Source: a virus
IMG/VR virus record: IMGVR_UViG_3300045988_126355
Direction: 5' to 3' (one strand)
DNA length: 64,000 nucleotides
Part shown: positions 39,251 through 62,600 of the stretch, one piece after another
Numbering within the stretch: the first letter of the stretch is position 1
How the letters are laid out: each line of letters opens with the position of its first letter
Notes under the pieces: generated by a model
The model's database searches: none
What the model saw: only the letters and a program-made list of their open reading frames with translations
Told to the model about the DNA's origin: nothing
Translations under genes and position numbers: made by a program

Positions 39251-42200
39251 CTACTTGTAGCTAACATCATCGTCCCCTTCCGAATCAGGAGTAGCGCCGA
39301 TGAAGAACATCATTGACTTGTTGTTCGTCTGCTGCCACCAATTATAGGCGCGCGCTACGTCTTCCGGCGTCTTGATATTATACCATTGTTTGATAAACGT
39401 CTGTTTGGCGAGTTGCCTAAATAACTTAGACTCTCCCTTGTATGTACCGGATGTTACTTTATCAAGTGAGTAATTCCTAAGATCAGTAAGATCCTTCAGT
39501 TTTCGCCCCATAACAAACGGATCGTTAATGATATCTACCACGTTAAGCTCCATAATAAACGGCATCTGTGAAGCTATTTCGTTTATGGTTCTGAATCCGA
39601 CATAGGATCCAAATTGAGTAAGCCAACTTTCTTCGTTTTCATCATCATCACGCCATCCGGCAAGAAGCATAGATACGGCCTGCATGATAAGGAACGTGCC
39701 GGCATAGACACTGAGACGTTTGAGATTGGTTTTTTCTACCTCATTCATATTGTCTTTATTTTCATTCCAGGCATCTATGATGTTTTTCATACCAGACTCG
39801 GAAGCCAGGCTAAATGTTTTGGCTATCATATTCTTTAACGTAATTGACAACCCTTCCTCTTCTTGCATTGTCTGGAAATTGAAGCCACGTCTTTTCCACA
39901 GACGTTGAGCCGACAGCACCAACCATCCTCGGTGGGCGGTCATGAACCTGGCTATCCAGTTGCGCGATGCGGCAGTTCGGTTTTCTTCATTCAAAGATCC
40001 GTTGCATATCTGCGACAAGCTACGAACTTGATTTCTGGTTATAGCCATCTGGGTTTCTACTTCCTCAACAGTAACACCCGATCCTGGCTTTACAACCACC
40101 TTCCCATCCACGACGTCTACCATACTCCATAAAGTACGATCTTTTAATGCGTTCCATTCTCTTTTTATGGTACTCTGTTCTTTATTGCGTTCTTTTTCCA
40201 TCTTGAAATCTTGGAACGTGTAGAACCGGCCTTTGTAATAACGAACATTGTCCATAGTAGCAATCATAACCTGCGGATCAAGAGGGTAGTTCAGGATTTC
40301 CATAAAAGCATACATAGGCGAACGCATTAAGGTCCTGGCCGCTCTATTGTATCCGGCACCATACATACGATTTCGGATATTGAATATCCCCATTCTCTCA
40401 CCTATGACATATAATTTGCTTTTCCTATCTATGTCTCCGGTTTCTGCTATACAAGATGGAGCAAGGCGTGAAAATTCAGCCGATGCGTATTTAAGGGAGT
40501 CTTTGCTTATATACTGTCCTACGGCAGATTCCATGATGAGGTTGATATGACCTGTCAGGGCGCCGGTAGCTGCCACAAACGGAGACAGTGCCAAGTTCAT
40601 GACCGACATAAATCTTTCAACAGCCATCATAATTCTTGTAAGGTCTACCGTATATCCTCCGATGTTCACCGTAAGTTTTTTGGTGTTCATCCTAATGCCA
40701 TAATAATGATCGTTGAAGAAGTCCCTGAACATCTGATATGCTTGGGTTGCTTCAGCCTTTTTACCACCTTCAAATTGTTTATTTAGTAACATCTGCTCCA
40801 GTCCTTGAGCGAGCTCTATAGACTTCTGCTTTTCGTTGTATAACGATGACTGCATCATAAGCATCGAATAAGAGTAGCCAAAATCGTGAGATACATCATC
40901 TTGGTTCTCCAATTCATATATGTAGTATTTAGGTATAGACCTAAGCCTGTCTTCTGGATCATACACTTCTCCTTGCCTGGTCTTACCATATAGAGAATCG
41001 TCTACTCTGTCCAGGCACAGATCTGATACAAAATTACGAACCGTATTTTTGAAGTTAATACCCAATCCTTCTATACGTTCTATATCTTGTTTTGATATCT
41101 GTGGAATAGCATACAGGTTCGGGCTCTGCTCTTTGTATAGATCAAGTGATTGTCTTTTTATTTCCTTGAGTTTTTGAATCATATTCCACTGATCTACGTT
41201 TTTAGTAGCAACTTCATTACCGTCAGCATCATACTTGATACCAAAGTCATTGAAATACGATTCGTCACGATACAGGCTTTTCTTAGGCATGCGATGACCA
41301 TACCCATGATCTTTTACATAATCAGGATTACGGCCGCTATTTTCGGCTTCAGATTCAGCCACCCATGCCCTTGCAGGGTCGAAAGAAAGGTACGATATGT
41401 CCATGCCATAATCTTGGGTGGATGTACCGTTTTGTACGTCCTTAACCATCTGCGCCACATCTATCTCACCTCGACCGATTTTGTCGATCATGGCCGCATA
41501 TCCGGTAGGCGCCATGCGTTTATAGTACGAAAAAACCTGGCTCCTGGCAAATTCATTAACAATAGCATTAGCTTCTTCTATGCCCGCTTTTATGTCAGCT
41601 TCTATACCCTCTTCTCTTGTATTATTTAAAAATAAGCTGGTCATCTTAGCATTAACAGCATTCCTGAAATCTCTACCGTCTAATTCTTTGCTTATACCAA
41701 GCTTTTCTGACAGGTAGTTGGTTTCAGATACGGTAAACAGATATCGGTTATCAGCAGCCTTAAACAGCTTATCCCTTAAAGCCTGAATCCTTTTTGCTTT
41801 CTTCGCCGTAGTATGACGTTGTACGAACTTCCATTCCACTTCCTTGGAGTCAGCAAGAGCATTTAAATAAGACTGATTTACTTCGTTTTCAGCCTTACTG
41901 CTTTTAGTAAGGTACTTATCAATATCTTCAAGACCCACCATCTTAGCATAATCTATCAAAATAGCGTAATCGGTTTCAATAGCTTCGGATGCGGCCCTAA
42001 AAGCATCTCTTTCAGATGAGGTAAATGTCGCTTCGTTAATTTCTCCGATATCAGCCACATCGCGATTGTTTCCGATTATTTCCTTGATAATGGCCTTATT
42101 TTTTTCTATATCTTTTACAATCGAGTCCACGTCAGTCGCATCTCTATCACTTGTCGTAGAACTAATGATATCATGCGCCATTTTAAGATACGAAGCCTTG

Positions 42201-45200
42201 TTATTTGATTCGGTACGTGCCGACTGTTCCGATTCTACATCATTCCAAAACCGATCATTAAATGACAGGTGACCTCCCAACATAAGTGCCTTCAACGCAG
42301 CTTCTCCTCCTGACTCGTTCTGAATCGTTCTTAATTTTTGCAAAAACGATTCTGATACGGAATTAGTGGCATTATTTGATTCTTTTCTCCAAACTTCATT
42401 TATGGCTTGTATTTCTTTGGCCATCTTAAGTTGGTCGCCGGTTTTTTCAACACGTCTGGTCCCTACATATATGTATTCCGAAGCTGCTTCCTTACGTTGT
42501 TTACGAAGCAGTCCTTCTTCTTCGTAGTTACTACTCTTATAGTAGGCAACCTCATCAAAATTACCACCGCTATCAATAAAAGGCTGCCTCAATATCCGTT
42601 TTTGCCGGGATAAGGCATTAAGGTATTCTTTGGTTGTTTGAGAAACCGGATGTCCTAATTCTTCTTCAGCCTTTTTGTATATGGATTCCATTCTTGTGGC
42701 GTAACTTTCACTAAATTCCAATTCTGAATTTTCAGCATCCCACTTTTCCATCTGCTCCGTATAGATCTTTTCCTGCTCGATGGTAAAAATATCGGTATTA
42801 ACCCTGTCAGATGAGGGCTTAAATTTAGCGTTTTCAGTAACCGTATTTCCGTCCTTGTCAACTACTTCTCTTTTAAATACGTAATTACGATTATTGTCAA
42901 CCACATCATTGATTTCTTCTTCTGATATTTCTATGTTCATGGCAGCCGCAAACGCACGCATCTGTGCCAGTTTCTTATTACGATCGTATTTAGCCATATC
43001 AAGAGCACTGCGAAGGTAATTAGAAGTTTTGCCATCTACTTTCTGAAGCAGTTTTTCAAATTCAGATTTGTTAAAACCATGCTTTTTAGCATATGCCAGG
43101 AAGTCGGATATGGCGGGCTGAGCATTCACCATCGCATTGTAATTGTCTTTGGCAATCATAGCTCCAAGAGCGTTATTGAACGGACTGGAAGAATGCTCTA
43201 ATATACCGAACCACCTACTTATCCAAGAGACATCATGTTGAACTTTGTCAAAAAATTCTTTTACTCTCTTTACCTTATCTGCCGGCACATGAAGTTCGTT
43301 CATTAACTTATCAAGCAACGTGCTTTCATCAAGGTCTTGTACTGATTTAATATCAGACTGAATACCATTAATGTCGGCAATGACGGTATTGATCCTATTT
43401 GTATAATCCTGCTTTTCACGTTCATCAAATTCGGTACTTCTGTTACGGATATATCCTCGAAGATCGTTCATGATCGGAAGAACCTGATTGTTGATAATAT
43501 CTACGTTCTTTCGATCATTGGTATTGAAGTGAAGCTTACCATCTTTGGTATCACCATGAAGGATGGTGTTCACCACATTGCTTAAGTATCTGACCTGAGC
43601 TTCGGCTGTAGAGATCATGCTATTCATGGCAGCCGCCATCTCATTCTTGTCTATTTCGGTCTCTACCTTATTTATCTTATCTTCTATAGTCTTAAGCTGA
43701 GCAAGGGTCATAGACGTAGTTACAGCCCTATCAGAGCTTATCTGACGCAAGTCTCTTAAGGTTTTTCTCAATGCCCGGATCTTAGACTCAAGAAACTTGT
43801 TCTTGTTCATAGAAGAAAGGGAGTATAATGTAAAGTCATTATCCTTTAACAGAGAGGTGTCAAATCCTTTATCTATGTCAGTAATGGCAAGATCACGAAT
43901 GCTTTTAATAACGTTATTCAAATCTTGTCTTTGGGTTGATAAAGCTGATTTAAGCCAGCTTACGATTCCAGAGAGAAGCTGCCGGACGCGCCCCAGGAAG
44001 GAGGTGGGCTCTACCGGCGCCTGTGCTGTGCCGGTCTGCATCTCCCTGGCGAGGATCTTTCCAAGAATTTCTCTCCTAACGGCATTATCAAGCTCAGATC
44101 CTTCATATACCTTACCGTATGTATTATAATACTGACCTGCATACTGGTTCCACTCTTCCGTACCTTCTACATCTTGCAGAACAGCCTCAACAGCATTCTG
44201 ATCTCTGTATGCCTCTACAAGGAAGTGGGATGTTTCTTCTACTAAATCAGATAAAGTAGCATCTTCACCAACTGCTATTACGTTATTGGCAATATCCGCC
44301 AATGCCTTAGCAGAAGGTTCATGCCCGTATTTGGTTTGGTACTTCTCTATATAATCGGTCATACCTATGACACTAACGCCAAGCGTTTTCAGTATCTCGA
44401 CAATAGAATTTCGTTGATCACGTTCCTGCCTGCTATAATCTGATACGATCTTAGCTTTAGTATCAGCATAAAGATCGTTGTCTTCTAATATGAATGAAAC
44501 TACAAGCGCATCAAAATGATCGTACTTGGCGTCCAATTCATTGTATCTTCCTGACTTAAGATCGTTCTTTATCTGCTCTTTGCTAACCCTTTCCGTTCCT
44601 CCGGTGGCGAGCCTCATAGTTACATTACTATTATCCAACGAGCTTATGGTTATCATACCTTGGTCGTTCATGGAAACATCGGAACCAAAATGATTACGGA
44701 GCTCGGTGTATGATAAGGCTGAATTGAAAAGTCTAATTTGTCCTGTATGACCTTCTCCTGTAAGATAATAGCTTCTTGTTTCCGGATCGAATATCTTAGA
44801 TCCTGACAAAAGACCTTTCTTTATAAGGTAGTTAATTATACCACCTTTTGTTGATAAAGAAGTAGAAGCAGAAGCGGTCATGACCGGTATAAAAGATTTG
44901 GGATTATTAAGAACATACTTTCCAGCCTTGTAAGTAATGTCTGCCACGCCATCCACGGTAGATTCTTGAACGGTGCCTGATAAGAATCCTATTCTAATAT
45001 CATTTCCGCCAGAGCGAAGAGCTTCTCCGTAATCTTCAAATAATTGACTACGATCGTTCATGAAAAACAAACGAGGCTCTCCGGTCTGATACGTTACACC
45101 CACAGGATTAGAATCTGTCTGTGGTAGCTCTTCTGGGCTAAATATCTTAAGACCGTCTTTTATAACCATATAATTAACACCCTTATCCTGTACCATAGAT

Positions 45201-45697
45201 ACGGGAGTGAAGTCCGAAGATATAGCATCTTGTAGATACTGCCCTGCGTCTATTCCCGGTCCTTCCGGTACGGAAATACTTGACGGGACCATAGCATCTA
45301 CCAACATAATATTATCACCCAGATCTTGGCTGTAAAATCCAAAGCCCGATTCTTGGATTTCATAAGGTGCATCTGATTTTGACACAAGAACAGGATTACT
45401 CATCTTAGAAGCCTTATCCAGTACCCTTTCTCTATAGGCTTCTGGGATAAGATCGATGTTGGATTTTACCTTATTATAAGCCTGTTTGTTGATAGGCACT
45501 CTCTTTCTCCAGTCGCCAAAAGCCTTTAAGAACTTGTTGGAAAATACGGTTTTAAAAACAGTAGTAGCCCGTTCCCTGTTCTCCATAAGGGGAATAGATG
45601 CTATTTTATCAAACAACATAGACCTGTCCCCTGATCTGGTAGAGACAGAAACAACTTTCTTTTTATTATCTCTTTTAATAATACACGTTGATACCAT
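39251..45697 (-). CDS. giant virion-associated protein (2148 aa), function unknown
   Basis: Single uninterrupted 6.4-kb ORF; no catalytic motif recognised by eye. Confidence 0.8.
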   Translation of the reverse strand: MVSTCIIKRDNKKKVVSVSTRSGDRSMLFDKIASIPLMENRERATTVFKTVFSNKFLKAFGDWRKRVPINKQAYNKVKSNIDLIPEAYRERVLDKASKMSNPVLVSKSDAPYEIQESGFGFYSQDLGDNIMLVDAMVPSSISVPEGPGIDAGQYLQDAISSDFTPVSMVQDKGVNYMVIKDGLKIFSPEELPQTDSNPVGVTYQTGEPRLFFMNDRSQLFEDYGEALRSGGNDIRIGFLSGTVQESTVDGVADITYKAGKYVLNNPKSFIPVMTASASTSLSTKGGIINYLIKKGLLSGSKIFDPETRSYYLTGEGHTGQIRLFNSALSYTELRNHFGSDVSMNDQGMITISSLDNSNVTMRLATGGTERVSKEQIKNDLKSGRYNELDAKYDHFDALVVSFILEDNDLYADTKAKIVSDYSRQERDQRNSIVEILKTLGVSVIGMTDYIEKYQTKYGHEPSAKALADIANNVIAVGEDATLSDLVEETSHFLVEAYRDQNAVEAVLQDVEGTEEWNQYAGQYYNTYGKVYEGSELDNAVRREILGKILAREMQTGTAQAPVEPTSFLGRVRQLLSGIVSWLKSALSTQRQDLNNVIKSIRDLAITDIDKGFDTSLLKDNDFTLYSLSSMNKNKFLESKIRALRKTLRDLRQISSDRAVTTSMTLAQLKTIEDKINKVETEIDKNEMAAAMNSMISTAEAQVRYLSNVVNTILHGDTKDGKLHFNTNDRKNVDIINNQVLPIMNDLRGYIRNRSTEFDEREKQDYTNRINTVIADINGIQSDIKSVQDLDESTLLDKLMNELHVPADKVKRVKEFFDKVQHDVSWISRWFGILEHSSSPFNNALGAMIAKDNYNAMVNAQPAISDFLAYAKKHGFNKSEFEKLLQKVDGKTSNYLRSALDMAKYDRNKKLAQMRAFAAAMNIEISEEEINDVVDNNRNYVFKREVVDKDGNTVTENAKFKPSSDRVNTDIFTIEQEKIYTEQMEKWDAENSELEFSESYATRMESIYKKAEEELGHPVSQTTKEYLNALSRQKRILRQPFIDSGGNFDEVAYYKSSNYEEEGLLRKQRKEAASEYIYVGTRRVEKTGDQLKMAKEIQAINEVWRKESNNATNSVSESFLQKLRTIQNESGGEAALKALMLGGHLSFNDRFWNDVESEQSARTESNNKASYLKMAHDIISSTTSDRDATDVDSIVKDIEKNKAIIKEIIGNNRDVADIGEINEATFTSSERDAFRAASEAIETDYAILIDYAKMVGLEDIDKYLTKSSKAENEVNQSYLNALADSKEVEWKFVQRHTTAKKAKRIQALRDKLFKAADNRYLFTVSETNYLSEKLGISKELDGRDFRNAVNAKMTSLFLNNTREEGIEADIKAGIEEANAIVNEFARSQVFSYYKRMAPTGYAAMIDKIGRGEIDVAQMVKDVQNGTSTQDYGMDISYLSFDPARAWVAESEAENSGRNPDYVKDHGYGHRMPKKSLYRDESYFNDFGIKYDADGNEVATKNVDQWNMIQKLKEIKRQSLDLYKEQSPNLYAIPQISKQDIERIEGLGINFKNTVRNFVSDLCLDRVDDSLYGKTRQGEVYDPEDRLRSIPKYYIYELENQDDVSHDFGYSYSMLMMQSSLYNEKQKSIELAQGLEQMLLNKQFEGGKKAEATQAYQMFRDFFNDHYYGIRMNTKKLTVNIGGYTVDLTRIMMAVERFMSVMNLALSPFVAATGALTGHINLIMESAVGQYISKDSLKYASAEFSRLAPSCIAETGDIDRKSKLYVIGERMGIFNIRNRMYGAGYNRAARTLMRSPMYAFMEILNYPLDPQVMIATMDNVRYYKGRFYTFQDFKMEKERNKEQSTIKREWNALKDRTLWSMVDVVDGKVVVKPGSGVTVEEVETQMAITRNQVRSLSQICNGSLNEENRTAASRNWIARFMTAHRGWLVLSAQRLWKRRGFNFQTMQEEEGLSITLKNMIAKTFSLASESGMKNIIDAWNENKDNMNEVEKTNLKRLSVYAGTFLIMQAVSMLLAGWRDDDENEESWLTQFGSYVGFRTINEIASQMPFIMELNVVDIINDPFVMGRKLKDLTDLRNYSLDKVTSGTYKGESKLFRQLAKQTFIKQWYNIKTPEDVARAYNWWQQTNNKSMMFFIGATPDSEGDDDVSYK

Positions 45698-47054: not shown

Positions 47055-47360
47055 TTAATACAAATCTTCTGAATACAATTGTTCTCTAATAGCACTCCTA
47101 TCTACTACCATTTCCTGATTATTGTTTCTAACAAGTTCAGATGCTTCTTCTCTTGTTAAAAACCGATTCTTGCTCGTCAAAAATCCTTGAACACTGCGGT
47201 TTTTATGAGCAATACCATAAGCTGCAAACTGAGAAATGATAGAACAATGTCTCAATCCACAAAATACGGTTCCGGATGGTATGTTTACTGGACCGTGAGG
47301 CTTGTTCTTGTGATCTTGAACCCATATAGCTGCGCATACAACAATTTCCTTATCACACAT
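47055..47360 (-). CDS. hypothetical protein (101 aa)
   Basis: ORF. Confidence 0.45.
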   Translation of the reverse strand: MCDKEIVVCAAIWVQDHKNKPHGPVNIPSGTVFCGLRHCSIISQFAAYGIAHKNRSVQGFLTSKNRFLTREEASELVRNNNQEMVVDRSAIREQLYSEDLY

Positions 47361-47363
47361 AAT

Positions 47364-47639
47364 TTACATATTTAAAATACCGTTTTTACCAATATGCTTC
47401 TTCTCTTCTTCAGTAGGCCATTCTTTCTTGAACTTACCATGCCACGTTCCAGGAACTACCACCACTTCGTCTCCCTTACTATATTCAATAGCGGCACATT
47501 CAGAACAAAGAGGCTTGCCTTCATATCCCTTTAGCGACTTATCGTAAATACGATTCTTACAAGGTCTTATAAGAGCCCAATAACAGGATGTGGCTGTATT
47601 ATCTATACAGCCACATTTTGAACAAACAAACAAACTCAT
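47364..47639 (-). CDS. Cys-rich zinc-ribbon-like protein (91 aa)
   Basis: CSKCGC...C...C...CSEC. Confidence 0.45.
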   Translation of the reverse strand: MSLFVCSKCGCIDNTATSCYWALIRPCKNRIYDKSLKGYEGKPLCSECAAIEYSKGDEVVVVPGTWHGKFKKEWPTEEEKKHIGKNGILNM

Positions 47640-48499
47640 CCCGCAATCTCCCAGTCATTAGACATAATATCATGTTCGGTTGGATTCCAATTTGATGCTA
47701 CTTTTTGACCTGTATCTATCATCAATATATTTACGTCAAACATACAGATATACTTTTTACCCCAATCGATTCTTTTTATCTTACGACCTAATTTAAGCCG
47801 TTCTAAAGCCTGTTCGAATGTCATGCCATGACGAGGCAGTTTGAGATACTTTTCAAGTCTGTCGGAGGCTTCATTTGGTGTATGGCCATCGTATTCGAAA
47901 GCGGTTTCTCTTTCAGGAACATCAAACAAATCCCAGTATTTGCTTTCATAGTGATTAGATACCTGACCGGTAGGTAGGATCGCCATCACAATAAACCAAT
48001 CATCAGAACCGAAGCATTTTTCTCCGTCGCTGTGTCTCCTTGATTTGCAAACTTCAACCTGTCCGCTTCTGGCTAATAGATTAAAGAAGGCAGCGTTATA
48101 CAACATGCGATACCGATACAATTCATTGAAAGTGTGGTATCCGTCAGAGACTTCTCCCACGTCTACAGGCTTCTTGTTTTGAATACTACCCAAAATATTC
48201 TCTATATAGAGCTGTATTTTATACATACCCATTTCGGTGTGGCCGTATTTGTTCAAGATATTATTGACATCGTATTGTATATTAAAATCTTTTTCAAATT
48301 CTACTTCAGGATGATTAGGATAGTAGTAATCTACTGATGCTTCTAACACAGACTTGATATGCTCTACTATCCTCGTGGCATCATCATGTTTTAAGAAATT
48401 CTTGAATCCCTCAACGAATTTAATATCTTCTTCGATTGTTGATTCGAACTCTTCTTTTGTCATTACTCTAATCACATCTTTAAAATCTTTTAATTCCAT
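47636..48499 (-). CDS. two-domain protein; C-terminal ~70 aa is a DUF2829 (Tad2-like) domain (287 aa)
   Basis: C-terminus MTFEQALERLKLGRKIKRIDWGKKYICMF fits the DUF2829 pattern [MS]F.EAL..LK.G.KV.R.GW...M.I. N-terminal part (SDGYHTFNELYRYRMLYNAAFF) unassigned. Confidence 0.5.
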   Translation of the reverse strand: MELKDFKDVIRVMTKEEFESTIEEDIKFVEGFKNFLKHDDATRIVEHIKSVLEASVDYYYPNHPEVEFEKDFNIQYDVNNILNKYGHTEMGMYKIQLYIENILGSIQNKKPVDVGEVSDGYHTFNELYRYRMLYNAAFFNLLARSGQVEVCKSRRHSDGEKCFGSDDWFIVMAILPTGQVSNHYESKYWDLFDVPERETAFEYDGHTPNEASDRLEKYLKLPRHGMTFEQALERLKLGRKIKRIDWGKKYICMFDVNILMIDTGQKVASNWNPTEHDIMSNDWEIAG

Positions 48500-48522: not shown

Positions 48523-49158
48523 CTATACTTTCTTTATCCTACAATACAAACCCCACAAAAACTCAGCGGAGAAACTATCCCATACATTATTCTTCTGCCA
48601 AAGTTCTACTTTGTTAACAAACCAAGACCATGTGGGACCCTCATATGAAGAATCAGATGATGATCCCAATCCGATTTTCTCCATTTCATTCGCCACATCA
48701 GAATAAGGATCTAAATCGACTCCCCTAATCATGTTAATAACATCATCCTTGTCTAACGTAAATTGAAACCGCTCCTTGTTAGTAGGCGGATCTTGATTCA
48801 ATTTACCAGTCGCAAGCCATTCTCCATCATGATACAATTCGGCAAGTTTCTTTACATTATTTTTAAGAAAAGAATACTCTTGTATGACTTCCATAAAATC
48901 AGCTTCGTTAGCTTTACCCTCTATGAAGATAACGGTTTTGCTTCCAGGTCTATGATCGTCTAAGCTTGCCGGGATTCCCAATATCGTCCATCCTTTAAAC
49001 TCAGCTATCTTAAAACGCATGACATCAAACACCTTATAAAAATCATCACAATCTACAGATTCTATTACCTTAACATCCTCTTCCGTAAATTTACCTCGTA
49101 TTGGAATAACATGATGACCAGGGCAGCCATCGGTTCCGAAATATGCGATTCTAACCAT
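48523..49158 (-). CDS. hypothetical protein (211 aa)
   Basis: ORF. Confidence 0.5.
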   Translation of the reverse strand: MVRIAYFGTDGCPGHHVIPIRGKFTEEDVKVIESVDCDDFYKVFDVMRFKIAEFKGWTILGIPASLDDHRPGSKTVIFIEGKANEADFMEVIQEYSFLKNNVKKLAELYHDGEWLATGKLNQDPPTNKERFQFTLDKDDVINMIRGVDLDPYSDVANEMEKIGLGSSSDSSYEGPTWSWFVNKVELWQKNNVWDSFSAEFLWGLYCRIKKV

Positions 49159-49159
49159 A

Positions 49160-49390
49160 TTATATATAATATTTTAGTTGTTCTGAAATCCTATATTTAC
49201 TTATATCATCGCACAAGTTACACCCTCCCGCACATCCACAAACCGAACAATACGAATCTCTTTCTGCCTTCGATTTAGATTGGAAATCTCTTGCAGCTTT
49301 AATCCAGGTAGGAGAAATAATATTACCGGAAAATATAGGTACATTTAAGATTAATATTTTCATTATTTTGGCAAAATATTCATATAACAC
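49160..49390 (-). CDS. small protein with Cys cluster CSVCGCAGGCNLC (76 aa)
   Basis: ORF. Confidence 0.4.
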   Translation of the reverse strand: MLYEYFAKIMKILILNVPIFSGNIISPTWIKAARDFQSKSKAERDSYCSVCGCAGGCNLCDDISKYRISEQLKYYI

Positions 49391-50270: not shown

Positions 50271-50564
50271 TCAGGTCAGATCCTTCCAGTTTATTTTTTC
50301 GCCGAGGTAATCTTGCACGGCAAGCCATCTTATAAAGGCTACTCCTTCGGGAGCATCCGGATCATCCAAATACATTAACGTAGCTTTCACCAACTCGTTC
50401 TCACATTTGAAGACCTTCGGAAAACCATCCGAATAGTACATTGCAAAGACATATTGGACATCGCCCCATGTCGCTTTATCCGGCTTCTTCGCTCCGCACT
50501 TTTCAAAAATATCTTTTATTTCCGGCTGCTTCCAGATCCTCTTGGATCCATCGACGTTGACCAT
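50271..50564 (-). CDS. hypothetical protein (97 aa)
   Basis: ORF. Confidence 0.45.
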   Translation of the reverse strand: MVNVDGSKRIWKQPEIKDIFEKCGAKKPDKATWGDVQYVFAMYYSDGFPKVFKCENELVKATLMYLDDPDAPEGVAFIRWLAVQDYLGEKINWKDLT

Positions 50565-50657: not shown

Positions 50658-51026
50658 TCAATAAGAACGACCTCTGCCACGTCCGCGACCTCTACGCATC
50701 TGAGGTCCGTCACCGTAGTATCTGTCGTCTCCATAGTAATCGGTCGGGTAGGATTCGTAACCCATCCTCCGGTATTCCCGGTCCTCCATTTCATGACGAC
50801 GTTCGCGCTCTTCGAGCCTTCTTTCCCTTTCTTCCAGCTCGTTTTCGCGCTCTTCCATTTCTTTCATCTTCTCATGCATACCGTAATGGTCGTAAATACC
50901 ACCACCATACCCCATGTACGTCCCATCAGAACGCCGGCTTCTGCCTCTGCCTCCACCTCGTCTGTCTTCTATCTCGTCATATCCAGGATATTCTCTGTGT
51001 CCTGAATTTAAATCATATACTATCAT
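50658..51026 (-). CDS. RGG/RG-repeat and RE-repeat low-complexity protein (122 aa), possible nucleic-acid-binding
   Basis: RRGGGRGRSRR...ERRLEERERRHEMEDREYRR...RRGRGRGRGRSY. Confidence 0.5.
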   Translation of the reverse strand: MIVYDLNSGHREYPGYDEIEDRRGGGRGRSRRSDGTYMGYGGGIYDHYGMHEKMKEMEERENELEERERRLEERERRHEMEDREYRRMGYESYPTDYYGDDRYYGDGPQMRRGRGRGRGRSY

Positions 51027-56082: not shown

Positions 56083-56670
56083 TTATGAAACTTCTATTTC
56101 ATAATGCGAAGCCTCTGTCTCAACTATCAATCTTCCCTCTCCTTCGAACTCAACGCTATCATTTCCTGGACCAGTAACAAAAGGGAAATCAGATACGGAC
56201 GTTACATAATCTCCAGAACCACCGGAGAAAGACTGACTTTTACTTTGTTTGTAATTGATAGTCAATTGTGTTTTACCTATCTGAAGAGTTCCAGATAAAT
56301 TTTTAGTATAAGTAGTGGTAATTGTAATATCCCCATTTTTATAACAATACATTATAAAGGTGGTAACCGGACTCTTTTTTATATTACTATCCGGACCTGC
56401 ATGATAAGATTCATTTCCTCCAAATATGCTATAAATGTGACAATAAGGACCGACTCTTTTACTTGAAGTTTTAGCCTTATCCTCGACTCCTTTCAAAGAT
56501 ATAGTAACCTTACTCTTGTATTCAATATCCTTCCAATTACAGACTCCTTCACTTACGTTTCCAACAAACCTGTCATCAACATAAACCTCTATATTCCCCT
56601 GCTGATTGGTCTTCAACTGATACTGAACAAGACTTGAAACATCTTCGTATCTCCTTCTCATACTCAACAC
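56083..56670 (-). CDS. hypothetical protein (195 aa)
   Basis: ORF; start overlaps the end of the upstream giant gene. Confidence 0.5.
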   Translation of the reverse strand: MLSMRRRYEDVSSLVQYQLKTNQQGNIEVYVDDRFVGNVSEGVCNWKDIEYKSKVTISLKGVEDKAKTSSKRVGPYCHIYSIFGGNESYHAGPDSNIKKSPVTTFIMYCYKNGDITITTTYTKNLSGTLQIGKTQLTINYKQSKSQSFSGGSGDYVTSVSDFPFVTGPGNDSVEFEGEGRLIVETEASHYEIEVS

Positions 56671-59600
56671 TCCTTATTTAACTCATTTATCGAATCCGAA
56701 TTATCAGAACCTTCTACGAGATTCTTATTCCTGTCTATCTCTTCCTGGCTCATATTACTCATCATATTTTGTATTTTTCTACCAGATTGAGATAAAGAGC
56801 GGATGAATGCACTGGAACTTATCTTAACTCCAAAATTCGGTTTTGCCCTAAACGCTTCACTGGTACTGATATTATACAAATCATACACACCTGAGTTCAT
56901 ATAGAATTTATATATCCAGTTTCCACCAGCTTTTTTGTACCCTATCTTCTCCGGTATAGGTTCTACTTTAGCCGGAACAGATGTATATGCTTCGTCACCG
57001 CCGTACAGGAAATAAGGGGTTGTCACCCTTGATATGTGAGTAAGCGACTCTTCGGATATACGAGGTTCGTCTTTCGCAGCCTTAGATCCTTTCCTTAGAT
57101 TGGATATTCTAATAAAAGGATCGTATGTCAAAAAGGTTAAGCCGTATTCTACTTTATAACCTGATACGCCGTTAAGGTCCCTTATAGCCTTAGTCGTATG
57201 CGAGTGATTGATGGTGTCTATACCATACCTTGATTCCATATCGGTCATAATACTATTAACCTCATCTCCCTCTACATAAACCTCTTCTCCTTCCGGGATA
57301 GAGGTTATGCCGGCAGCCCTTCTAAGTAGCCATAAAGTAACTTCAGCAATGTCAGAGAACTTATCTCCGTTCTTCCTATAGTTATCTACTCTTCCTTCTT
57401 CAGATCCAGGTAATTCGACATTTCTTTCAACTTCGACATTTGTTCTGGATTGTCCTTTGCCTTCTCCATCTCCCTTTTTATCGCCATCTTCCTCAGTGCG
57501 TACTGCACCGCCTTCTGCACTTCCTTCTTTTCCATCATTTAAAATATTATCTGATTCTGACTCTATAGACTCCACGACAGCATCATACTCTGGTATGCCG
57601 CTAAGGAAATCTGCTACGTTATTCAAAAACTCTATTTTTTCCTCGTTTGTCATATCAAGGCTTTCCACGGGCTCCCATATGGCAGGCAAGTTGTTTGATT
57701 TTATTGCAGTAGAAACATCTTCTACAGTTTTATTATCCACCGTAGGCAAAACTTTAGAAACCAAACTATTGATATCAGATTCCATTTTTTCTACTTCCTC
57801 TTTTGTGCCATATTCTTTTAGGGTATCCATGCCATTGACTCTAAGAGAATAATTCAAAGCCTTGCTTGGAACAAAATTAATATATTTCAAAAAGTTTTTC
57901 AACTCTGATATAATTTGTTCGTCAGATCTTGGCCCAACATAATCAACCACCACCTGATCTGTTTGAGAACGAAGCCAAGAAACATATTCTTCTAAAGTCT
58001 TACCACCTTTACTGGAAGGAGTGGATATTTTATCACCTACTGTTCCTTTAGGTTCTAATCCCATTTCTTCCTTAAGGCTTTTAGGATTACCTCTCTCACG
58101 AAGAAACCTCAAATCACCTCCTACAATCTTCCTTGCTATAAAATCAAAAATATTAGCATAAGACGGCAATCCTTCTTTTTCTATATGAGATTCTATTTCG
58201 TTTAACATAAGAGAGAAGTTTTTCCTGGAGGTACGCTTCTTGCCAGGTAAAGACTGCGCAGCTTGTGCCGCAGGAGCCGGCTGAGCTAATGGCGCCGTCT
58301 GAGTCTCCCGGGCAGCCCCTTCCTCTGGCATTTCCTCTTCATAAACATCCACGTATTCTTTAGAAGTAACGGTCTTACCCTCATCAGAGAAAGGAAGATC
58401 ATCCTCTATAAGTGATTTAGGTCTGGAAGATGATTCACCAAACTGAATCCTGATCTTAGGAGCGACAAACATCTCACCTTCGAAATCTATTCCAGATTCT
58501 ACTTCAGACGTCACAATGTCTTTCACATTCCTGCTTTCATCTTCTACCCATTTAACAACATCAGGAACCGTAGATAATTTTTCTATAGCCTCACGAGCTT
58601 TTCTAAGCCCTGAAATAGGATTCAAATACGATACTTGATACGAAGCCGGATCAAGGCCTAACTTGGTTAGATACGCATTAAGATCTTGACCCATCTGTAG
58701 CAATTCAGAATCACCGGATTCAAGCAGCATATCTATAAAAGACATCCATTTCCGCCCTTCCTCTGATTCCACAGAACGCAGGCTAACTGGGAAAAGATAA
58801 TTAAGACCGTTTTTACCCTTGATAACAACTACCGGAACTCTTACATTTTTGTAATTATTTCCCTTGTCATTTAATATAGAATAAGCAAATGGGAAGCCTG
58901 TGTATTTAGATCCGTTCTTAAGCACGACTTTGCCATTTAATACATATCCTACATCAGATACTTTTTCAGCACCTTTTTCGGTAATAGGGAGATTTTCTAC
59001 CTGGCCATATCCTTGACCGTTTACCTTCATGTTAAACACCGGTCTTCCGGGAAGAGTCTGGGCAACAACATGCGTGCCGACGCTGATGGTAGCCGACCGG
59101 CCAGCATCTTTCTTCCACTTGTTAAATGCCGTTCTTCTTATTTTACTTATACCGTCTATGCCTCCCGTATCAGCTTTTACAACAGAAACGAATCTGTTCC
59201 CACTCATGACCTTGATAACCATATTGGACACCAGTTTATTCTCAGCAGATTCTATTCTTTTTTTATCGCCGGACTGAACAGCATCATTGTATTCGGCAAA
59301 AAGAGACTGATTATAGGTATCATTTACATCTATTTCGAGATTAACCTTATCTCCTTTTTTCAAAGAAGATAATGCTTCCTGATCTATTTTATCTACCTCA
59401 TTCTCTCCGAATCCAACACCCGTTCTGTATGGAACCAACTCATCTGAATCAAGACGCTTATAAACCAAAGAATATGAATTACCCACATCCTGAATAGACA
59501 CATCTGTGTAAAGATTAAGAACACGAGCCGATTCTTTGTCTATAGACCATCTCGCATGATAAGGCAGTTCAATTATAGTAGCCGTTTCACCACCTATGTT

Positions 59601-62600
59601 AAGAGAATACCTTTTAGTGCCATTAGCGTTCGTTTCAGAGCTTATTTGAATAGGAACCAATGATTTTATGGAAGATATAAATTTATCGGCTCTAAGACCG
59701 GCAATTTCATACCTTTCATTGCCGTCATTGGATATTCTTCTAACCATCAACGTCTCTGGATTCTGGGCACTATCTATATTGGCTCCCGGCGTATTATCGG
59801 ATTCGTCTAATTCATTTACAAGAGAATCTATATTAACATCATCTTCCCCAAAATTACTCAACGTAGATTCAGAGATACGACCTTTGTCAATAATCCTGTT
59901 TTGTTCGATATAAGGAAGGAGATCCGTGATGTTTCCAACCTGACCAAGATCTTCTATGGTAAATACCGAATCAGCAAGCTTATCTTCGTCAACTTTCTCC
60001 CCTTTGTCCCGTCTGTTCATTATATCCACATACGAAGAAATAGCATCATCAAGTTCCTGCCTTTGATCTGGTTCTAAATTGGATTTAGCCATATCAATAA
60101 TAGCTTTATTATCCTCATACACAGATCTCGGACTTGTAAGCCTATCAGCCTTCTCAGATAATGATTTTATGAGATTAACAGGACTGTCACCCAAAGACGA
60201 TACATAATCATCAAAATCTTGTTTGTATTTATCATACACATCTTTTTCTCTCGCAGTAAGAAGATCGGCATTACCTGTATATAGTTTATCAATTATAGAC
60301 TGCCTTACGGCCGGAACCATAATAGGATTATCCATAGCAGCCTCATAATCTTCATCCGATACAGACTCCGTAAGCGGTGACTCTTTTATATCATCTTCTG
60401 CTTCCTTCATCCTATCTTCCCTTACTTTATCAAGAGCATGCATAAAAGCCTTGATAGTCCAAGCTTCGTCTTCCGAAATCTTACCTTCTGACACAGCTTG
60501 ATCTACTACCTCATCAGTGTCATATTCACCAACTTTATTAGGCTCTGCAAAATCAGGAACCTTGTCATCCTCCTTATAAGGAGTAGACCATAAAGAAGAC
60601 AACGCTTTTAAAAATCCTCTGTTTTCCTCGGCTAAGAATCTTTTATCAAGCATCTTAGACAAGAAGTTATTCATATTCCTATAGTCTATCAAACTCCTAC
60701 GGTATTCATTTACCAAGGATCTCATGGCTTTATCTTTAGCTGTAAACTCCTTTTCTTGTCTTGATTTTACATTGAAATAATCATCAAAAGCCACGAGCGT
60801 ATCATAAGCCTCTATTACATCTTGTGAGCTTATAGGAGAAAGAGGTGATGATAAAACAGATTCGGTTTTACTTACCAACTCTTCTATCGAAAACTCTTTT
60901 CCTATTAACGTTGATAACTCAGACAACGAATTATTGTAATTGGTTCTAAGATCTTCCAATTCTTTGGTTTTTCGTTGTATAGATTCAGCTTGTGGGTCTT
61001 TTCCATCTACGTTACGAGGACGGGTGGCAAGATCTTCTATTTCGGATTCAAGTTCTTCTATTCTTGATCGTATGCCACGGATAGCCATCGCCCGCTCCCT
61101 TGCTCTGTCCGACAGCCGGGAGAACGTACTTAGCGCATCTGCCACGCGAGGCTGTCCTGAAAGCGTTTCTATGACAGAAGCTATGTCTTTCATCCTTGAT
61201 TCTGATTGAAGACCAAGGAAGGCATTACGAGCCACGTATTTCCTAAATTCAATCTTAGAGTCATCACCTATAAGATCTTCAGCAAAACTCTGAGCAGATC
61301 TGAAATCAGAAAGACGATTATTATAATTATCAATAATAGAGTCCTTGTATTTCTTTGCCTCTTCTAAAGACATCCCATTAGCTTCAGCTATTTCTGAAAT
61401 AGGCATCATATCAACCATCTGCCTGAAATTCTCAGCCGAATCCTCTAAGGTTCCCATTTGGTTGTCAATAGACATCTTTTCAAACATAGCATCATCAAGC
61501 TCCTTGCCGGTCATAGACTGAGCATCGGAACGAACTTGCGGACCTAAACTCATTGACTTCTTCAACGTATTCAAAGCCGCCGTATTAAGATTAGAAGATG
61601 CTTTGTTGTATTCATCCACCTGCCTCTCTAGTAATATCTGACTATTACTATACTCTTTTACCCCAAAGAAGCCTTCTCTCATGCCGAACAAAGAACCGAT
61701 AATAGCACCTATTCCTATTTCAGTCCATCCTTCTTTAGACGTATATTGTTTTTTAAATCCTTCAGAAATAGCATCAAGAACATCAACGGCTCCGTTCATG
61801 GCGACATTATCATATCTTGACTTAACATATTCTTCAGCCGTATTCTGGACAGCACCTTGAGACCCTTCTTCCCACAGACCCTCAGATACCGGTCTTTTCA
61901 TGATATTGAAAACATTGCCTGCTATCTTCTGTCCTATATTGGGATTGGTTATTTTAATAGCCATCTCTCCCGGCTTCGCAACTTCCGTCCCTAATCCAAA
62001 TAAATGCTTGTTGAGCTTCTTTTCCAACCCAGGTATAGCCTTGCCTCCTAACCCTATATACTTACCAAAAAGAAGCCAGTTGGATAATCCTACGATACCC
62101 ATATTGGCGGCAAATATAGCACTACCTACATCAGCATTAGAATTACGAAAAACAGCCATTTCCTCTGCATTGGGATCACGACCATAAATCTTACGATAAT
62201 AATCCTTGAAATCAGACTCGGATTGCTTCATAAAAGAATTTGCTTCGACCGATGACTCGAATCCAGCACTGGTAGCCAACAACGTCATGGTCTTAGCCGC
62301 CTCCCCTACATTTCTTCCGGTAGCAACTCCTTTTCTCACATAGTCGTTAAACACGCTTTTAAGGCTTCCTATGCCCCTATTAGCAGCTTGCCTTGCTGCT
62401 AACTTAGCTCCGATTCTTCCACCTAATTTAGCACCTATATTGCCCAATGATCCAACTCCAAGTCCTCCGGTCATGTACGCTGATATCATGGCTCCTACGG
62501 TAAAAGACATACCGTTACCAAGGACATCATTCCATAAGAAATTACCGGTATCCTTAAAAAGCTTCTGACCGAAATTATAATCTTCTACCTCTTTCTTGTA

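What the first reader, a model, noticed from the sequence alone, without database searches (positions are those of the whole stretch)
47636..48499. DUF2829 (Tad2-like) domain fused to an unknown N-terminal domain
The last ~70 aa (MTFEQALERLKLGRKIKRIDWGKKYICMF...) fit the DUF2829 signature. That fold is used by Tad2 anti-Thoeris proteins to sequester cyclic-nucleotide immune signals such as gcADPR. Here it is the C-terminus of a 287-aa protein with an unassigned N-terminal domain (SDGYHTFNELYRYRMLYNAAFF). A fused signal-sponge or signal-degrading enzyme would be a new anti-defence architecture. Its place in the late block near virion genes could also mean it is packaged.
Basis: partly seen in the sequence, partly recalled or inferred. 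Interest (0 to 1): 0.6.

Follow-up and report, generated by a model that had tools for sequence, protein, structure and literature searches.

The report
WDGH domain fused to mini-Tad2
A very common human-gut phage encodes a three-part accessory protein: a stripped-down copy of the Tad2 immune-signal sponge joined to a widespread phage domain (WDGH) of unknown function, so it is a reasonable but untested counter-defence candidate and not a new architecture.

Summary
The ORF is real: 47636-48499, minus strand, 287 aa. The identical protein occurs in 492 blocks of the metagenome collection, on contigs of about 150 kb.

It has three modules:
- aa 1-110: a helical region modelled with low confidence.
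- aa 115-217: Pfam WDGH (PF25311, E=6e-36).
- aa 226-285: Tad2-like (PF11195, E=7e-11). Foldseek matches Tad2 crystal structures.

The architecture is not new. 98 of the 120 closest protein clusters have both domains, and GenBank phage csAssE-Sib carries it.

The Tad2 module is a minimal core:
- The beta2-beta5 insertion is deleted. That insertion forms the dimer interface and the cyclic-dinucleotide pocket.
- The diphosphate-binding Asn-Gly is Gly-Lys.
- Both Trp and the Asp of the gcADPR pocket remain.

Relatives fuse WDGH to canonical Tad2 and to Sequestin+Tad2. The same kind of fusion evidence led to Sequestin. I conclude it is a candidate module against nucleotide immune signalling, unproven. 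I found no evidence for packaging into virions.

The parts
47636..48499 (-). Whole ORF, 287 aa, with three modules: N-terminal helical region, WDGH, mini-Tad2.
   Evidence: The identical protein is in 492 blocks of the metagenome collection.
48170..48499 (-). N-terminal region, about aa 1-110. It is predicted helical with low confidence and matches no family. It is exchangeable among relatives (7-98% identity).
   Evidence: AF2 pLDDT is 31-69 over this region. No Pfam, PHROG, NCBIfam or PADLOC hit. Per-domain identity.
48175..48304 (-). A 130-bp indel (about 41-43 aa, EFEKDFNIQYDVNN...NKKPVD) inside the N-terminal region. It is absent from csAssE-Sib and from many relatives.
   Evidence: blastn of the window against csAssE-Sib; alignment A1.
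47849..48157 (-). WDGH domain (PF25311), aa 115-217, with an alpha-beta-beta-beta-alpha-alpha topology. Residues invariant across phage lineages: S118 D119 H122 T123 L127 Y128 R131 S153 H156 G178 H183 D204 G205 R214. H206 is nearly invariant.
47645..47824 (-). Minimal Tad2-like domain (PF11195), aa 226-285: alpha1 plus a five-stranded sheet plus a short helix. It has no beta2-beta5 insertion. Equivalents of the gcADPR-contact residues are W246 G247 I261 T263 Q265 S269 W271 T274 H276 D277.
   Evidence: Residue roles come from the papers read.
47364..47639 (-). Downstream 91-aa Cys-rich ORF (CxxC...CxxC; phrog_11861, unknown function). Its ATG overlaps the target's TGA as ATGA, which suggests translational coupling in the same operon.
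   Evidence: Sequence at 47636-47639 reads tcat on the + strand; ORF list; PHROG hit.

Best explanation
The gene encodes a modular, dispensable accessory protein of a highly prevalent human-gut phage of about 150 kb. Its nearest record is csAssE-Sib, and its genome layout resembles crAss-like phages. I think it most likely acts against nucleotide-based host immunity of the Thoeris/TIR or CBASS type.

Shown:
- Three separable modules are strung together.
- The conserved, autonomous core is the WDGH domain, a small alpha/beta domain of about 100 aa. It carries a constellation of invariant polar residues: three Asp/His dyads (D119..H122, H156-x-D158, D204-x-H206), plus H183, R131, R214, S118, S153 and Y128.
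- The C-terminal module is the bare core of the Tad2 fold. It keeps the two Trp and the Asp that sandwich gcADPR in solved Tad2 proteins. It lacks the insertion that forms the dimer interface and the cyclic-dinucleotide pocket, and it lacks the diphosphate-binding Asn-Gly.

Inferred:
- WDGH is the working part. It is either a small-molecule (nucleotide-derived) binding site or, more likely given the His/Asp/Arg invariants, a small hydrolase site.
- The mini-Tad2 is a fast-evolving, swappable auxiliary module. It either still binds an ADP-ribose-derived signal with altered specificity or serves mainly for oligomerisation.
- The fusion follows the 'beads on a string' pattern already seen for Acb4-Tad2 and Sequestin-Tad2 proteins. 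In that pattern, independent anti-signalling modules are joined in one polypeptide.
For: - Domain assignments. Tad2 fold.
- WDGH is the conserved core. It is 70-100% identical (mean 87%) across relatives in which the Tad2 module is 17-100% (mean 44%) and the N-terminus 7-98%. For example, P0014 has 97% WDGH identity but 41% Tad2 identity, which points to module replacement.
- WDGH is autonomous. Listeria phage P100 gp128 is a 115-aa stand-alone WDGH protein. All 120 best relatives of gp128 contain WDGH only and are 100-200 aa long.
- The family is large. It comprises 4078 clusters at 50% identity and occurs in 198 cultured-phage records from Listeria, Bacillus, Salmonella, Streptococcus, Lactococcus and Klebsiella phages.
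- 14 residues are invariant across phages of Gram-positive, Gram-negative, actinobacterial and gut hosts, at only 29-44% overall identity.
- Fusion evidence. Relatives fuse WDGH to canonical long Tad2 domains (WNGKG...WVPSxSD; E=2e-16 to SptTad2, which binds cGG). Seven clusters are WDGH+Sequestin(PF21825)+Tad2. Sequestin was itself discovered as a 3'cADPR sponge from its fusion to Tad2 and Acb4 (PMC12265669).
- Modules occur in every combination within this phage lineage: N+WDGH+Tad2, N+WDGH, N+Tad2, and Tad2 alone.
- The gene sits in a block of small unknown genes whose content varies between genomes. The position is comparable to that of crAss001 gp48, the founding member of the Sequestin family, which lies between the giant genes gp47 and gp49/50.
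Against: - There is no functional data for any WDGH protein. Searches for 'WDGH' and 'PF25311' returned no relevant papers.
- Only 3 of the 147 top-scoring WDGH family representatives carry Tad2 and only 1 carries Sequestin. The fusion evidence therefore rests on one gut-phage clade.
- The mini-Tad2 lacks Asn26/Asn22-Gly23, and 4 of the 10 SPO1 contact positions are changed non-conservatively. In the short forms the residues after the first Trp vary freely (GK, GG, KN, ND, KD, RN), which suggests the canonical pocket is no longer under constraint.
- The dimer interface element is deleted, so the tetramer that creates the pockets may not form.
- The oligomeric state and the spatial clustering of the WDGH invariant residues could not be computed here.
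- In P22-like phages and in phiAsp2, WDGH genes lie inside late morphogenesis operons. That is not the usual place for early-acting sponges.
Confidence: 0.4

Rival explanations
1. The protein is not a signalling antagonist. WDGH would be a nucleic-acid- or host-factor-directed domain with a regulatory, host-takeover or nucleic-acid-processing role. The mini-Tad2 would be a degenerate scaffold kept only as an oligomerisation or adaptor domain.
For: - WDGH is occasionally fused to DNA-binding domains: Bro-N (P0007, E=2e-26) and sigma-70 region 4 (E=9e-7).
- WDGH genes lie in late operons of P22-like phages, between the coat gene and gp4, and of phiAsp2, just upstream of the major tail protein gene.
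- The canonical gcADPR residues of the mini-Tad2 are not maintained.
Against: - Invariant His, Asp and Ser dyads are not a dsRBD feature.
- Each DNA-binding fusion is seen once or twice. Fusions to bona fide sponge modules (canonical Tad2, Sequestin) are recurrent in this clade.
- The mini-Tad2 keeps W246, W271 and D277 and folds confidently.
Confidence: 0.3
2. The mini-Tad2 alone is a functional gcADPR/ADPR-type sponge, and WDGH is an unrelated passenger module. In that case the anti-Thoeris activity lies entirely in aa 226-287.
For: - All core secondary-structure elements that surround the gcADPR pocket are present (beta1-beta2 loop, beta3-beta4, helix alpha3; one search compared).
- W25, W73, D79, I63 and T65 are conserved, and S76 is replaced by Thr.
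- Lys248 and Lys249 follow the Trp and could replace Asn in contacting phosphate. This is an inference.
- The mini-Tad2 occurs as its own 62-66 aa ORF in some genomes of this lineage (P0390, P0391).
- Li et al. report that the gcADPR site is conserved in about 99% of Tad2 homologues, while the insertion is highly variable.
Against: - Asn26 (Asn22 in HgmTad2) is Gly here, T78 is His, D67 is Gln and H71 is Ser.
- The insertion that forms the dimeric unit of the tetramer is reduced to 2 residues.
- Short-form domains vary at the Asn-Gly position.
- Close relatives with 77-member clusters have dropped the domain altogether (P0061, P0064).
Confidence: 0.25
3. The protein is a virion-packaged or ejected protein.
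For: - The gene lies on the same strand as, and between, two giant ORFs (2191 aa and 2148 aa). The 2148-aa ORF matches phrog_37651 'virion structural protein'.
- From general knowledge rather than a test here, crAss-like phages package giant cargo proteins.
Against: - None of the three modules matches a structural family.
- WDGH genes sit in early or accessory gene blocks in Listeria, Bacillus, Klebsiella, Lactococcus and Streptococcus phages.
- The gene is truncated or deleted in close relatives.
- I found no virion proteomics for this phage group.
Confidence: 0.08

Closest known systems
Tad2 sponges: SPO1 Gp34.65 (PDB 8SME/8SMF/8SMG), HgmTad2 = AcrIIA7 (8KBI-8KBM), SptTad2 (8WJD), ModTad2 (9EIB)
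   Same: - Same Pfam family, PF11195.
- Same core fold: alpha1 plus an antiparallel sheet plus a short C-terminal helix.
- The two pocket Trp, the Asp, and the Ile and Thr are conserved.
   Different: - It is about 60 aa, against 89-104 aa.
- The beta2-beta5 insertion is absent. That is residues 36-59 in SPO1 and 32-72 in HgmTad2, and it forms the dimer interface and the CDN pocket.
- The Asn-Gly diphosphate clamp is Gly-Lys.
- T78 is replaced by His, D67 by Gln and H71 by Ser.
- It is fused to two other modules instead of standing alone.
- Oligomeric state and ligand binding are untested.
Multi-module anti-signalling fusions: Acb4-Tad2 (Pasteurella phage Pm86), Sequestin(PF21825)-Tad2, Sequestin-Acb4 (Tal et al. 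2025, PMC12265669)
   Same: A Tad2-family module is joined in one polypeptide to another small phage module. Relatives of this protein are WDGH+Sequestin+Tad2.
   Different: The partner here, WDGH, has no demonstrated activity. This protein has no Sequestin module. Its Tad2 module is the minimal form.
WDGH domain family (PF25311), for example Listeria phage P100 gp128, Salmonella phage BTP1_006, Klebsiella phage LASTA gp61 and Lactococcus phage 1706 orf65
   Same: Full-length match to the family profile at 123 bits. All 14 family-invariant residues are present.
   Different: - Most members are stand-alone proteins of 100-200 aa or have unassigned flanks.
- This one carries an N-terminal helical region and a Tad2-like tail.
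- The name-giving Trp is Tyr203 here.
- No member has a known function or a solved structure.
Bacteroides phage crAss001 gp48, the founding member of PF21825 (Sequestin)
   Same: It is a small accessory gene from a sponge family lying between giant genes, gp47 and gp49/50. The target is similarly placed between ORFs of 2191 aa and 2148 aa.
   Different: The protein family is different. crAss001 gp48 is a 63-aa single-domain protein. Homology between the flanking giants was not tested.

Membership tests
Tad2 / DUF2829 (PF11195) | Profile match above the Pfam gathering score | tested here: met
   42.9 bits against a cut-off of 25, E=7.1e-11, profile positions 1-72 of 73.
Tad2 / DUF2829 (PF11195) | Core fold: N-terminal helix, five-stranded antiparallel sheet, short helix before the last strand | tested here: met
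   AF2 pLDDT is 85-94 with H228-236, E241-243, E249-254, E257-262, E267-270, H275-279 and E283-285. Foldseek to 8wje, 8smf and 8v3e gives E of about 1e-4 and TM(target) 0.66-0.75.
Tad2 sponge (functional sense) | gcADPR-pocket residues (SPO1 W25 N26 I63 T65 D67 H71 W73 S76 T78 D79; HgmTad2 W21 N22 G23 S90 T92 D93) | tested here: inconclusive
   The window residues are W246 G247 I261 T263 Q265 S269 W271 T274 H276 D277. Five are identical, one is conservative and four are changed. The phosphate-binding Asn and Asn-Gly are among the changed ones. Short-form relatives vary at this position.
Tad2 sponge (functional sense) | beta2-beta5 insertion with helix alpha2, which forms the V/X-shaped dimer and, in long forms, the CDN pocket | tested here: not met
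   The insertion is reduced to 2 residues (D255-V256). The Trp-to-Trp spacer is 24 aa, against 47 aa in SPO1 and 59 aa in canonical fused forms. Its role is described in the papers read.
Tad2 sponge (functional sense) | Homotetramer with pockets at protomer interfaces | not testable with these tools
   Only single-chain prediction was available.
Tad2 sponge (functional sense) | Sequesters gcADPR or His-ADPR and inhibits Thoeris | not testable with these tools
   This needs biochemistry and phage infection assays.
WDGH domain (PF25311) | Profile match above the Pfam gathering score | tested here: met
   123.1 bits against a cut-off of 27, E=5.8e-36, profile positions 1-96 of 97.
WDGH domain (PF25311) | Family-invariant residues (SDGxHT..ELY..R, S..H.DG, G....H, [WY]DGH, R) | tested here: met
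   All 14 invariant positions are present. The motif is YDGH (Y203) rather than WDGH.
Sequestin (PF21825) | Profile match | tested here: not met
   This protein has no PF21825 hit. The domain is present only in relatives P0109, P0114-P0118 and P0120.
Known solved anti-signalling folds represented in the PDB library searched | Structural similarity of the WDGH domain to any solved chain | tested here: not met
Known defence-system proteins (PADLOC) and NCBIfam | Profile match | tested here: not met
   0 families in each library.

The most novel reading that the evidence does not exclude
WDGH (PF25311) is a large, previously unrecognised family of phage proteins that neutralise nucleotide immune signals. 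It would most plausibly be a small His/Asp-based hydrolase, or otherwise a new sponge, with a fold unlike any solved protein. The WDGH-Tad2 and WDGH-Sequestin-Tad2 proteins of gut phages would then be multi-pronged inhibitors of TIR/Thoeris- or CBASS-type immunity in Bacteroidales. This is the same fusion-based inference that uncovered Sequestin.
Probability: 0.3. Interest if true: 0.75.

Novelty: new variant of a known kind. Interest (0 to 1): 0.5.

Why it matters
- **Reach.** If WDGH acts on immune signals, it would add a family of more than 4000 clusters (at 50% identity) to the known counter-defence repertoire. That family includes genes in well-studied Listeria (P100/A511-like), Bacillus, Lactococcus and P22-like Salmonella phages. 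It would also have a new fold and possibly a new chemistry.
- **Gut ecology.** It would help explain how one of the most prevalent human-gut phages copes with TIR and CBASS signalling in Bacteroidales.
- **Tad2 biology.** The mini-Tad2 is a natural experiment. It shows what remains of the Tad2 fold when the dimerisation and CDN-binding insertion is removed, which bears on which parts of Tad2 are needed for gcADPR sequestration.
- **If not.** If WDGH proves unrelated to immunity, the locus is simply a mosaic accessory gene carrying a decaying sponge domain.

Tried and rejected
- **Literature.** Searches for 'WDGH', 'PF25311', 'STMMW_03821' (the BTP1 WDGH gene), 'csAssE' and 'crAss001 gp48' gave nothing relevant. 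No supplementary tables of Tal et al. 2025 are held.
- **Fold searches.** The afdb50 library was unavailable. BFVD returned only other WDGH phage proteins with no functional names.
- **Zinc site.** I rejected the idea that Cys151 and Cys162 form a zinc site. These Cys are not conserved outside the gut-phage clade.
- **NADAR link.** The link suggested by Bacillus phage Nate, where WDGH gp134 overlaps the NADAR gene gp135, is absent in Tsamsa and TsarBomba.
- **N-terminus.** I first thought csAssE-Sib had a different N-terminus. blastn showed instead a 130-bp indel inside a homologous N-terminus.
- **Lockin and Acb5.** I did not pursue identity of WDGH with these families. Neither description in Tal et al. 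points to WDGH, and no sequences were available for a direct comparison.
- **Neighbours.** Pfam and PHROG scans of the neighbouring genes gave only unknown-function families.
- **Promoters.** I did not run the sigma-70 promoter scan, because the likely Bacteroidales host uses a different promoter type.
Full report
**1. The observation**

The ORF listing finds a 287-aa ATG-initiated ORF at 47636..48499 on the minus strand (sequence). Pfam splits it into two domains. PF25311 'WDGH domain' covers aa 115-217 (E=5.8e-36, 123 bits, cut-off 27). PF11195 'Tad2-like' (the former DUF2829) covers aa 226-285 (E=7.1e-11, 42.9 bits, cut-off 25).

The true N-terminus (aa 1-110) is a third region with no family match in Pfam, PHROGs, NCBIfam or PADLOC. 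The PHROG matches to the other two modules are all 'unknown function' apart from one weak 'transcriptional regulator' family (phrog_643, E=1.4e-4) over aa 254-286.

The gene is real and abundant. The identical protein is indexed in 492 blocks of the metagenome collection, mostly on contigs of 50-200 kb. A homology search returned 1558 clusters.

**2. The phage and the neighbourhood**

The only close record among 50,697 phage genomes is csAssE-Sib (human gut, 151 kb). It is collinear with the window at 95-97% identity, and its homologue WOZ57315 is annotated 'DUF2829'. Relative to csAssE-Sib the window has two differences. One is a 130-bp indel inside the gene's N-terminal region (48175-48304). 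The other is an 808-bp insertion just upstream (48532-49339) that carries a 211-aa ORF.

The + strand half of the window holds replication genes: helicases, a DnaB-like helicase, exonucleases and a methyltransferase. The minus-strand half begins with giant ORFs.

The target sits in a run of about 15 small genes of unknown function. That run lies between a 2191-aa ORF and a 2148-aa ORF, and the latter matches phrog_37651 'virion structural protein'. The target's TGA overlaps the ATG of a 91-aa Cys-rich ORF as ATGA, so the genes are tightly packed in one operon. Gene content of this block varies between otherwise near-identical contigs.

In Bacteroides phage crAss001, gp48 lies between the giant genes gp47 and gp49/50. 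gp48 is the founding member of PF21825, the family now called Sequestin. So there is precedent for a small gene of a sponge family in this kind of position. Whether crAss001 gp48 itself has been tested was not checked.

**3. The Tad2-like module**

An AlphaFold2 model of the whole protein is confident for aa 130-287 (pLDDT 84-97) and poor for the N-terminus. Foldseek against the PDB returns only Tad2 structures: SPO1 Tad2 8wje/8smf/8smg/8sme, ModTad2 8v3e/9eib and HgmTad2/AcrIIA7 8kbi. E is about 1e-4 and TM(target) is about 0.7. Family membership at the fold level is therefore established.

Function as a sponge is less clear. In SPO1 Tad2, gcADPR is held by W25, N26, I63, T65, D67, H71, W73, S76, T78 and D79 (bioRxiv 10.1101/2023.05.01.538930). 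In HgmTad2 the diphosphate is bound by N22 and G23. The mutants W21A/N22A and S90A/T92A/D93A markedly reduce binding (PMC10680739).

Using the HMMER alignment to 8sme, the window residues are W246, G247, I261, T263, Q265, S269, W271, T274, H276 and D277. Both Trp, the Asp, the Ile and the Thr are kept, and Ser becomes Thr. The phosphate-binding Asn is Gly, and three further positions differ.

More striking is the insertion between beta2 and beta5. It spans residues 36-59 in SPO1 and 32-72 in HgmTad2, and here it is reduced to two residues. That insertion carries helix alpha2, which builds the V/X-shaped dimer. In long forms it also builds the whole cyclic-dinucleotide pocket.

Among WDGH-fused Tad2 modules I found discrete length classes:
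- Trp-to-Trp spacer of 59 aa, always with the canonical WNGKG...WVPSxSD. P0112 matches SptTad2, which binds cGG, at E=2e-16.
- Spacers of 24-39 aa, in which the two residues after the Trp vary freely (GK, GG, KN, ND, KD, RN).

The window protein belongs to the shortest class. This is the pattern expected if the canonical pocket is no longer under the same constraint. It does not exclude a changed specificity.

**4. The WDGH module**

A separate model of aa 108-222 is very confident (pLDDT 94, pTM 0.83). Its topology is a long helix, a three-stranded antiparallel sheet, a short helix, a long loop and a C-terminal helix.

- A profile built from divergent members finds nothing in PDB sequences.
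- BFVD returns only other phage WDGH proteins, from Lactococcus P092 and P1046, Klebsiella LASTA, Vibrio J2 and Streptomyces BRock.

The family is large. It has 4078 clusters at 50% identity with E<=1e-3. It occurs in 198 cultured-phage records, including Listeria 54, Bacillus 45, Salmonella 34, Streptococcus 13, Lactococcus 13 and Klebsiella 8.

The common form stands alone. P100 gp128 is 115 aa, and all 120 best relatives of gp128 contain WDGH only. Among the 147 top-scoring representatives, only 3 carry Tad2 and only 1 carries Sequestin. Most flanking regions are unassigned.

Genomic positions vary. The gene lies in early or accessory blocks in Listeria, Bacillus, Klebsiella, Lactococcus and Streptococcus phages. 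In P22-like phages it lies between the coat gene and gp4 (BTP1_006). In phiAsp2 it lies just upstream of the major tail protein gene. This is the behaviour of a moron or accessory gene.

Fourteen residues are invariant across members from phages of Gram-positive, Gram-negative, actinobacterial and gut hosts, at 29-44% overall identity. They are S118, D119, H122, T123, L127, Y128, R131, S153, H156, G178, H183, D204, G205 and R214. H206, D158 and E126 are nearly invariant.

The pattern is three Asp/His dyads, a fourth His, two Arg, and Ser and Tyr. These lie in loops and at strand ends that the secondary-structure map places on one edge of the sheet. To me this looks more like a catalytic or metal and phosphate-binding site than a purely structural core. 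That is an inference: I could not obtain model coordinates to confirm that the residues cluster. The two Cys of the gut clade are not conserved, so I rejected a Cys-based zinc site.

**5. Modularity**

Per-domain identity to the window protein shows WDGH at 70-100% (mean 87%) in the same relatives where the Tad2 module is 17-100% (mean 44%) and the N-terminus 7-98%. P0014, for example, is 97% identical in WDGH and 41% in Tad2, which indicates module replacement rather than gradual divergence.

Within this phage lineage every combination exists:
- N+WDGH ending just after 'GMTF' (P0061 and P0064, 77 member sequences each).
- N+Tad2 without WDGH (P0388).
- Tad2 alone, 62-66 aa (P0390; P0391 on 10 contigs).
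- An upstream ORF fused to Tad2 (P0389, P0392).
- The N-terminus fused to the T4_Y16D-family gene that lies two genes downstream (P0076, P0106).

The modules are therefore separable and individually dispensable, as expected for accessory functions.

**6. The link to immune signalling**

Tal et al. 2025 (PMC12265669) observed that sponge modules are often fused, as in Acb4-Tad2. They then searched for unknown families fused to Tad2 or Acb4 and found PF21825, and they showed that members of it are 3'cADPR sponges ('Sequestin').

In the present family, 98 of the 120 nearest clusters are WDGH+Tad2. Seven are WDGH+Sequestin+Tad2, and two more add a Bro-N domain. By the same reasoning WDGH is a candidate immune-signal-manipulating module.

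There are caveats:
- The association is confined to one gut-phage clade.
- Nothing has been tested experimentally.
- 'WDGH' and 'PF25311' appear in no paper I could search.
- Lockin (a curved, mostly beta hexamer) and Acb5 do not look like WDGH from their descriptions, but no sequence comparison was possible.

**7. Verdict**

The C-terminal module is a true Tad2-family domain joined to a domain of unknown function. However, the architecture is already common in databases, the Tad2 module is a stripped-down and possibly non-canonical version, and nothing supports packaging into virions.

My best explanation (confidence about 0.4) is a modular counter-defence protein. WDGH would be the conserved working part and the mini-Tad2 a fast-evolving auxiliary ligand-binding or oligomerisation module.

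The rivals are:
- A role unrelated to immunity, with WDGH directed at nucleic acids or host factors (0.3).
- A self-sufficient mini-sponge with WDGH as a passenger (0.25).
- A packaged protein (0.08).

I rate it a new variant of a known kind, namely a multi-module Tad2 fusion, with moderate interest. The valuable lead is the WDGH family, not the fusion as such.

Noticed in passing
window 47055-47360 (-): This 101-aa ORF is assigned to PF26092 'T4_Y16D' by precomputed Pfam hits. The local Pfam copy lacks the model, so one search found nothing. Deletion variants in related phages fuse the target's N-terminus directly to this gene (P0076, P0106). Its function is unknown. T4 Y16Q, a different T4 ORF of the same name series, is a Sequestin sponge.
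   Followed up: partly
window 48532-49339 (-), ORF 48523-49158: An 808-bp insertion relative to csAssE-Sib carries a 211-aa ORF (MVRIAYFGTDGCPGHH...) with no Pfam or PHROG match. In one relative (P0002, 439 aa) it is read through into the WDGH-Tad2 gene.
   Followed up: partly
window 39251-45697 (-) and 56664-63239 (-): Two giant ORFs (2148 aa and 2191 aa) flank the block of small genes. The first matches phrog_37651 'virion structural protein' and the second matches phrog_32390 (unknown). The layout, with the giants convergent on a + strand replication module, resembles crAss001 gp47-gp50, but homology to the crAss RNA-polymerase giants was not tested.
   Followed up: partly
window 47364-47639 (-): A 91-aa Cys-rich ORF (CSKCGC...CSEC, zinc-ribbon-like; phrog_11861, unknown function) appears translationally coupled to the target through an ATGA overlap.
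   Followed up: no
window 50658-51026 (-): A 122-aa low-complexity ORF is rich in Arg, Glu and Gly (EERERRLEERERR...RGRGRGRGRSY). It has no family match.
   Followed up: no
window 50271-50564 (-): A 97-aa ORF matches Pfam DUF7841 (E=3.8e-9).
   Followed up: no
L003 3321-3881 (Salmonella phage BTP1, BTP1_006); L015 2432-2821 (phiAsp2 Pas24): WDGH genes are inserted inside late morphogenesis operons. In P22-like phages the gene lies between the coat gene and gp4 (34 Salmonella records match WDGH). In an actinophage it lies just upstream of the major tail protein gene. These look like unexplained late-operon morons.
   Followed up: partly
L019 10994-12166: An IS605 OrfB/TnpB (Cas12f1-like) gene lies about 4 kb downstream of a WDGH+Sequestin+Tad2 gene in a 40-kb gut-phage contig. 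It is absent from the otherwise identical contig L020.
   Followed up: no
L002 2848-4048 (Bacillus phage Nate gp134/gp135): The WDGH gene overlaps a NADAR-family gene, which belongs to an ADP-ribose-related family. The adjacency is not conserved in Tsamsa or TsarBomba.
   Followed up: yes
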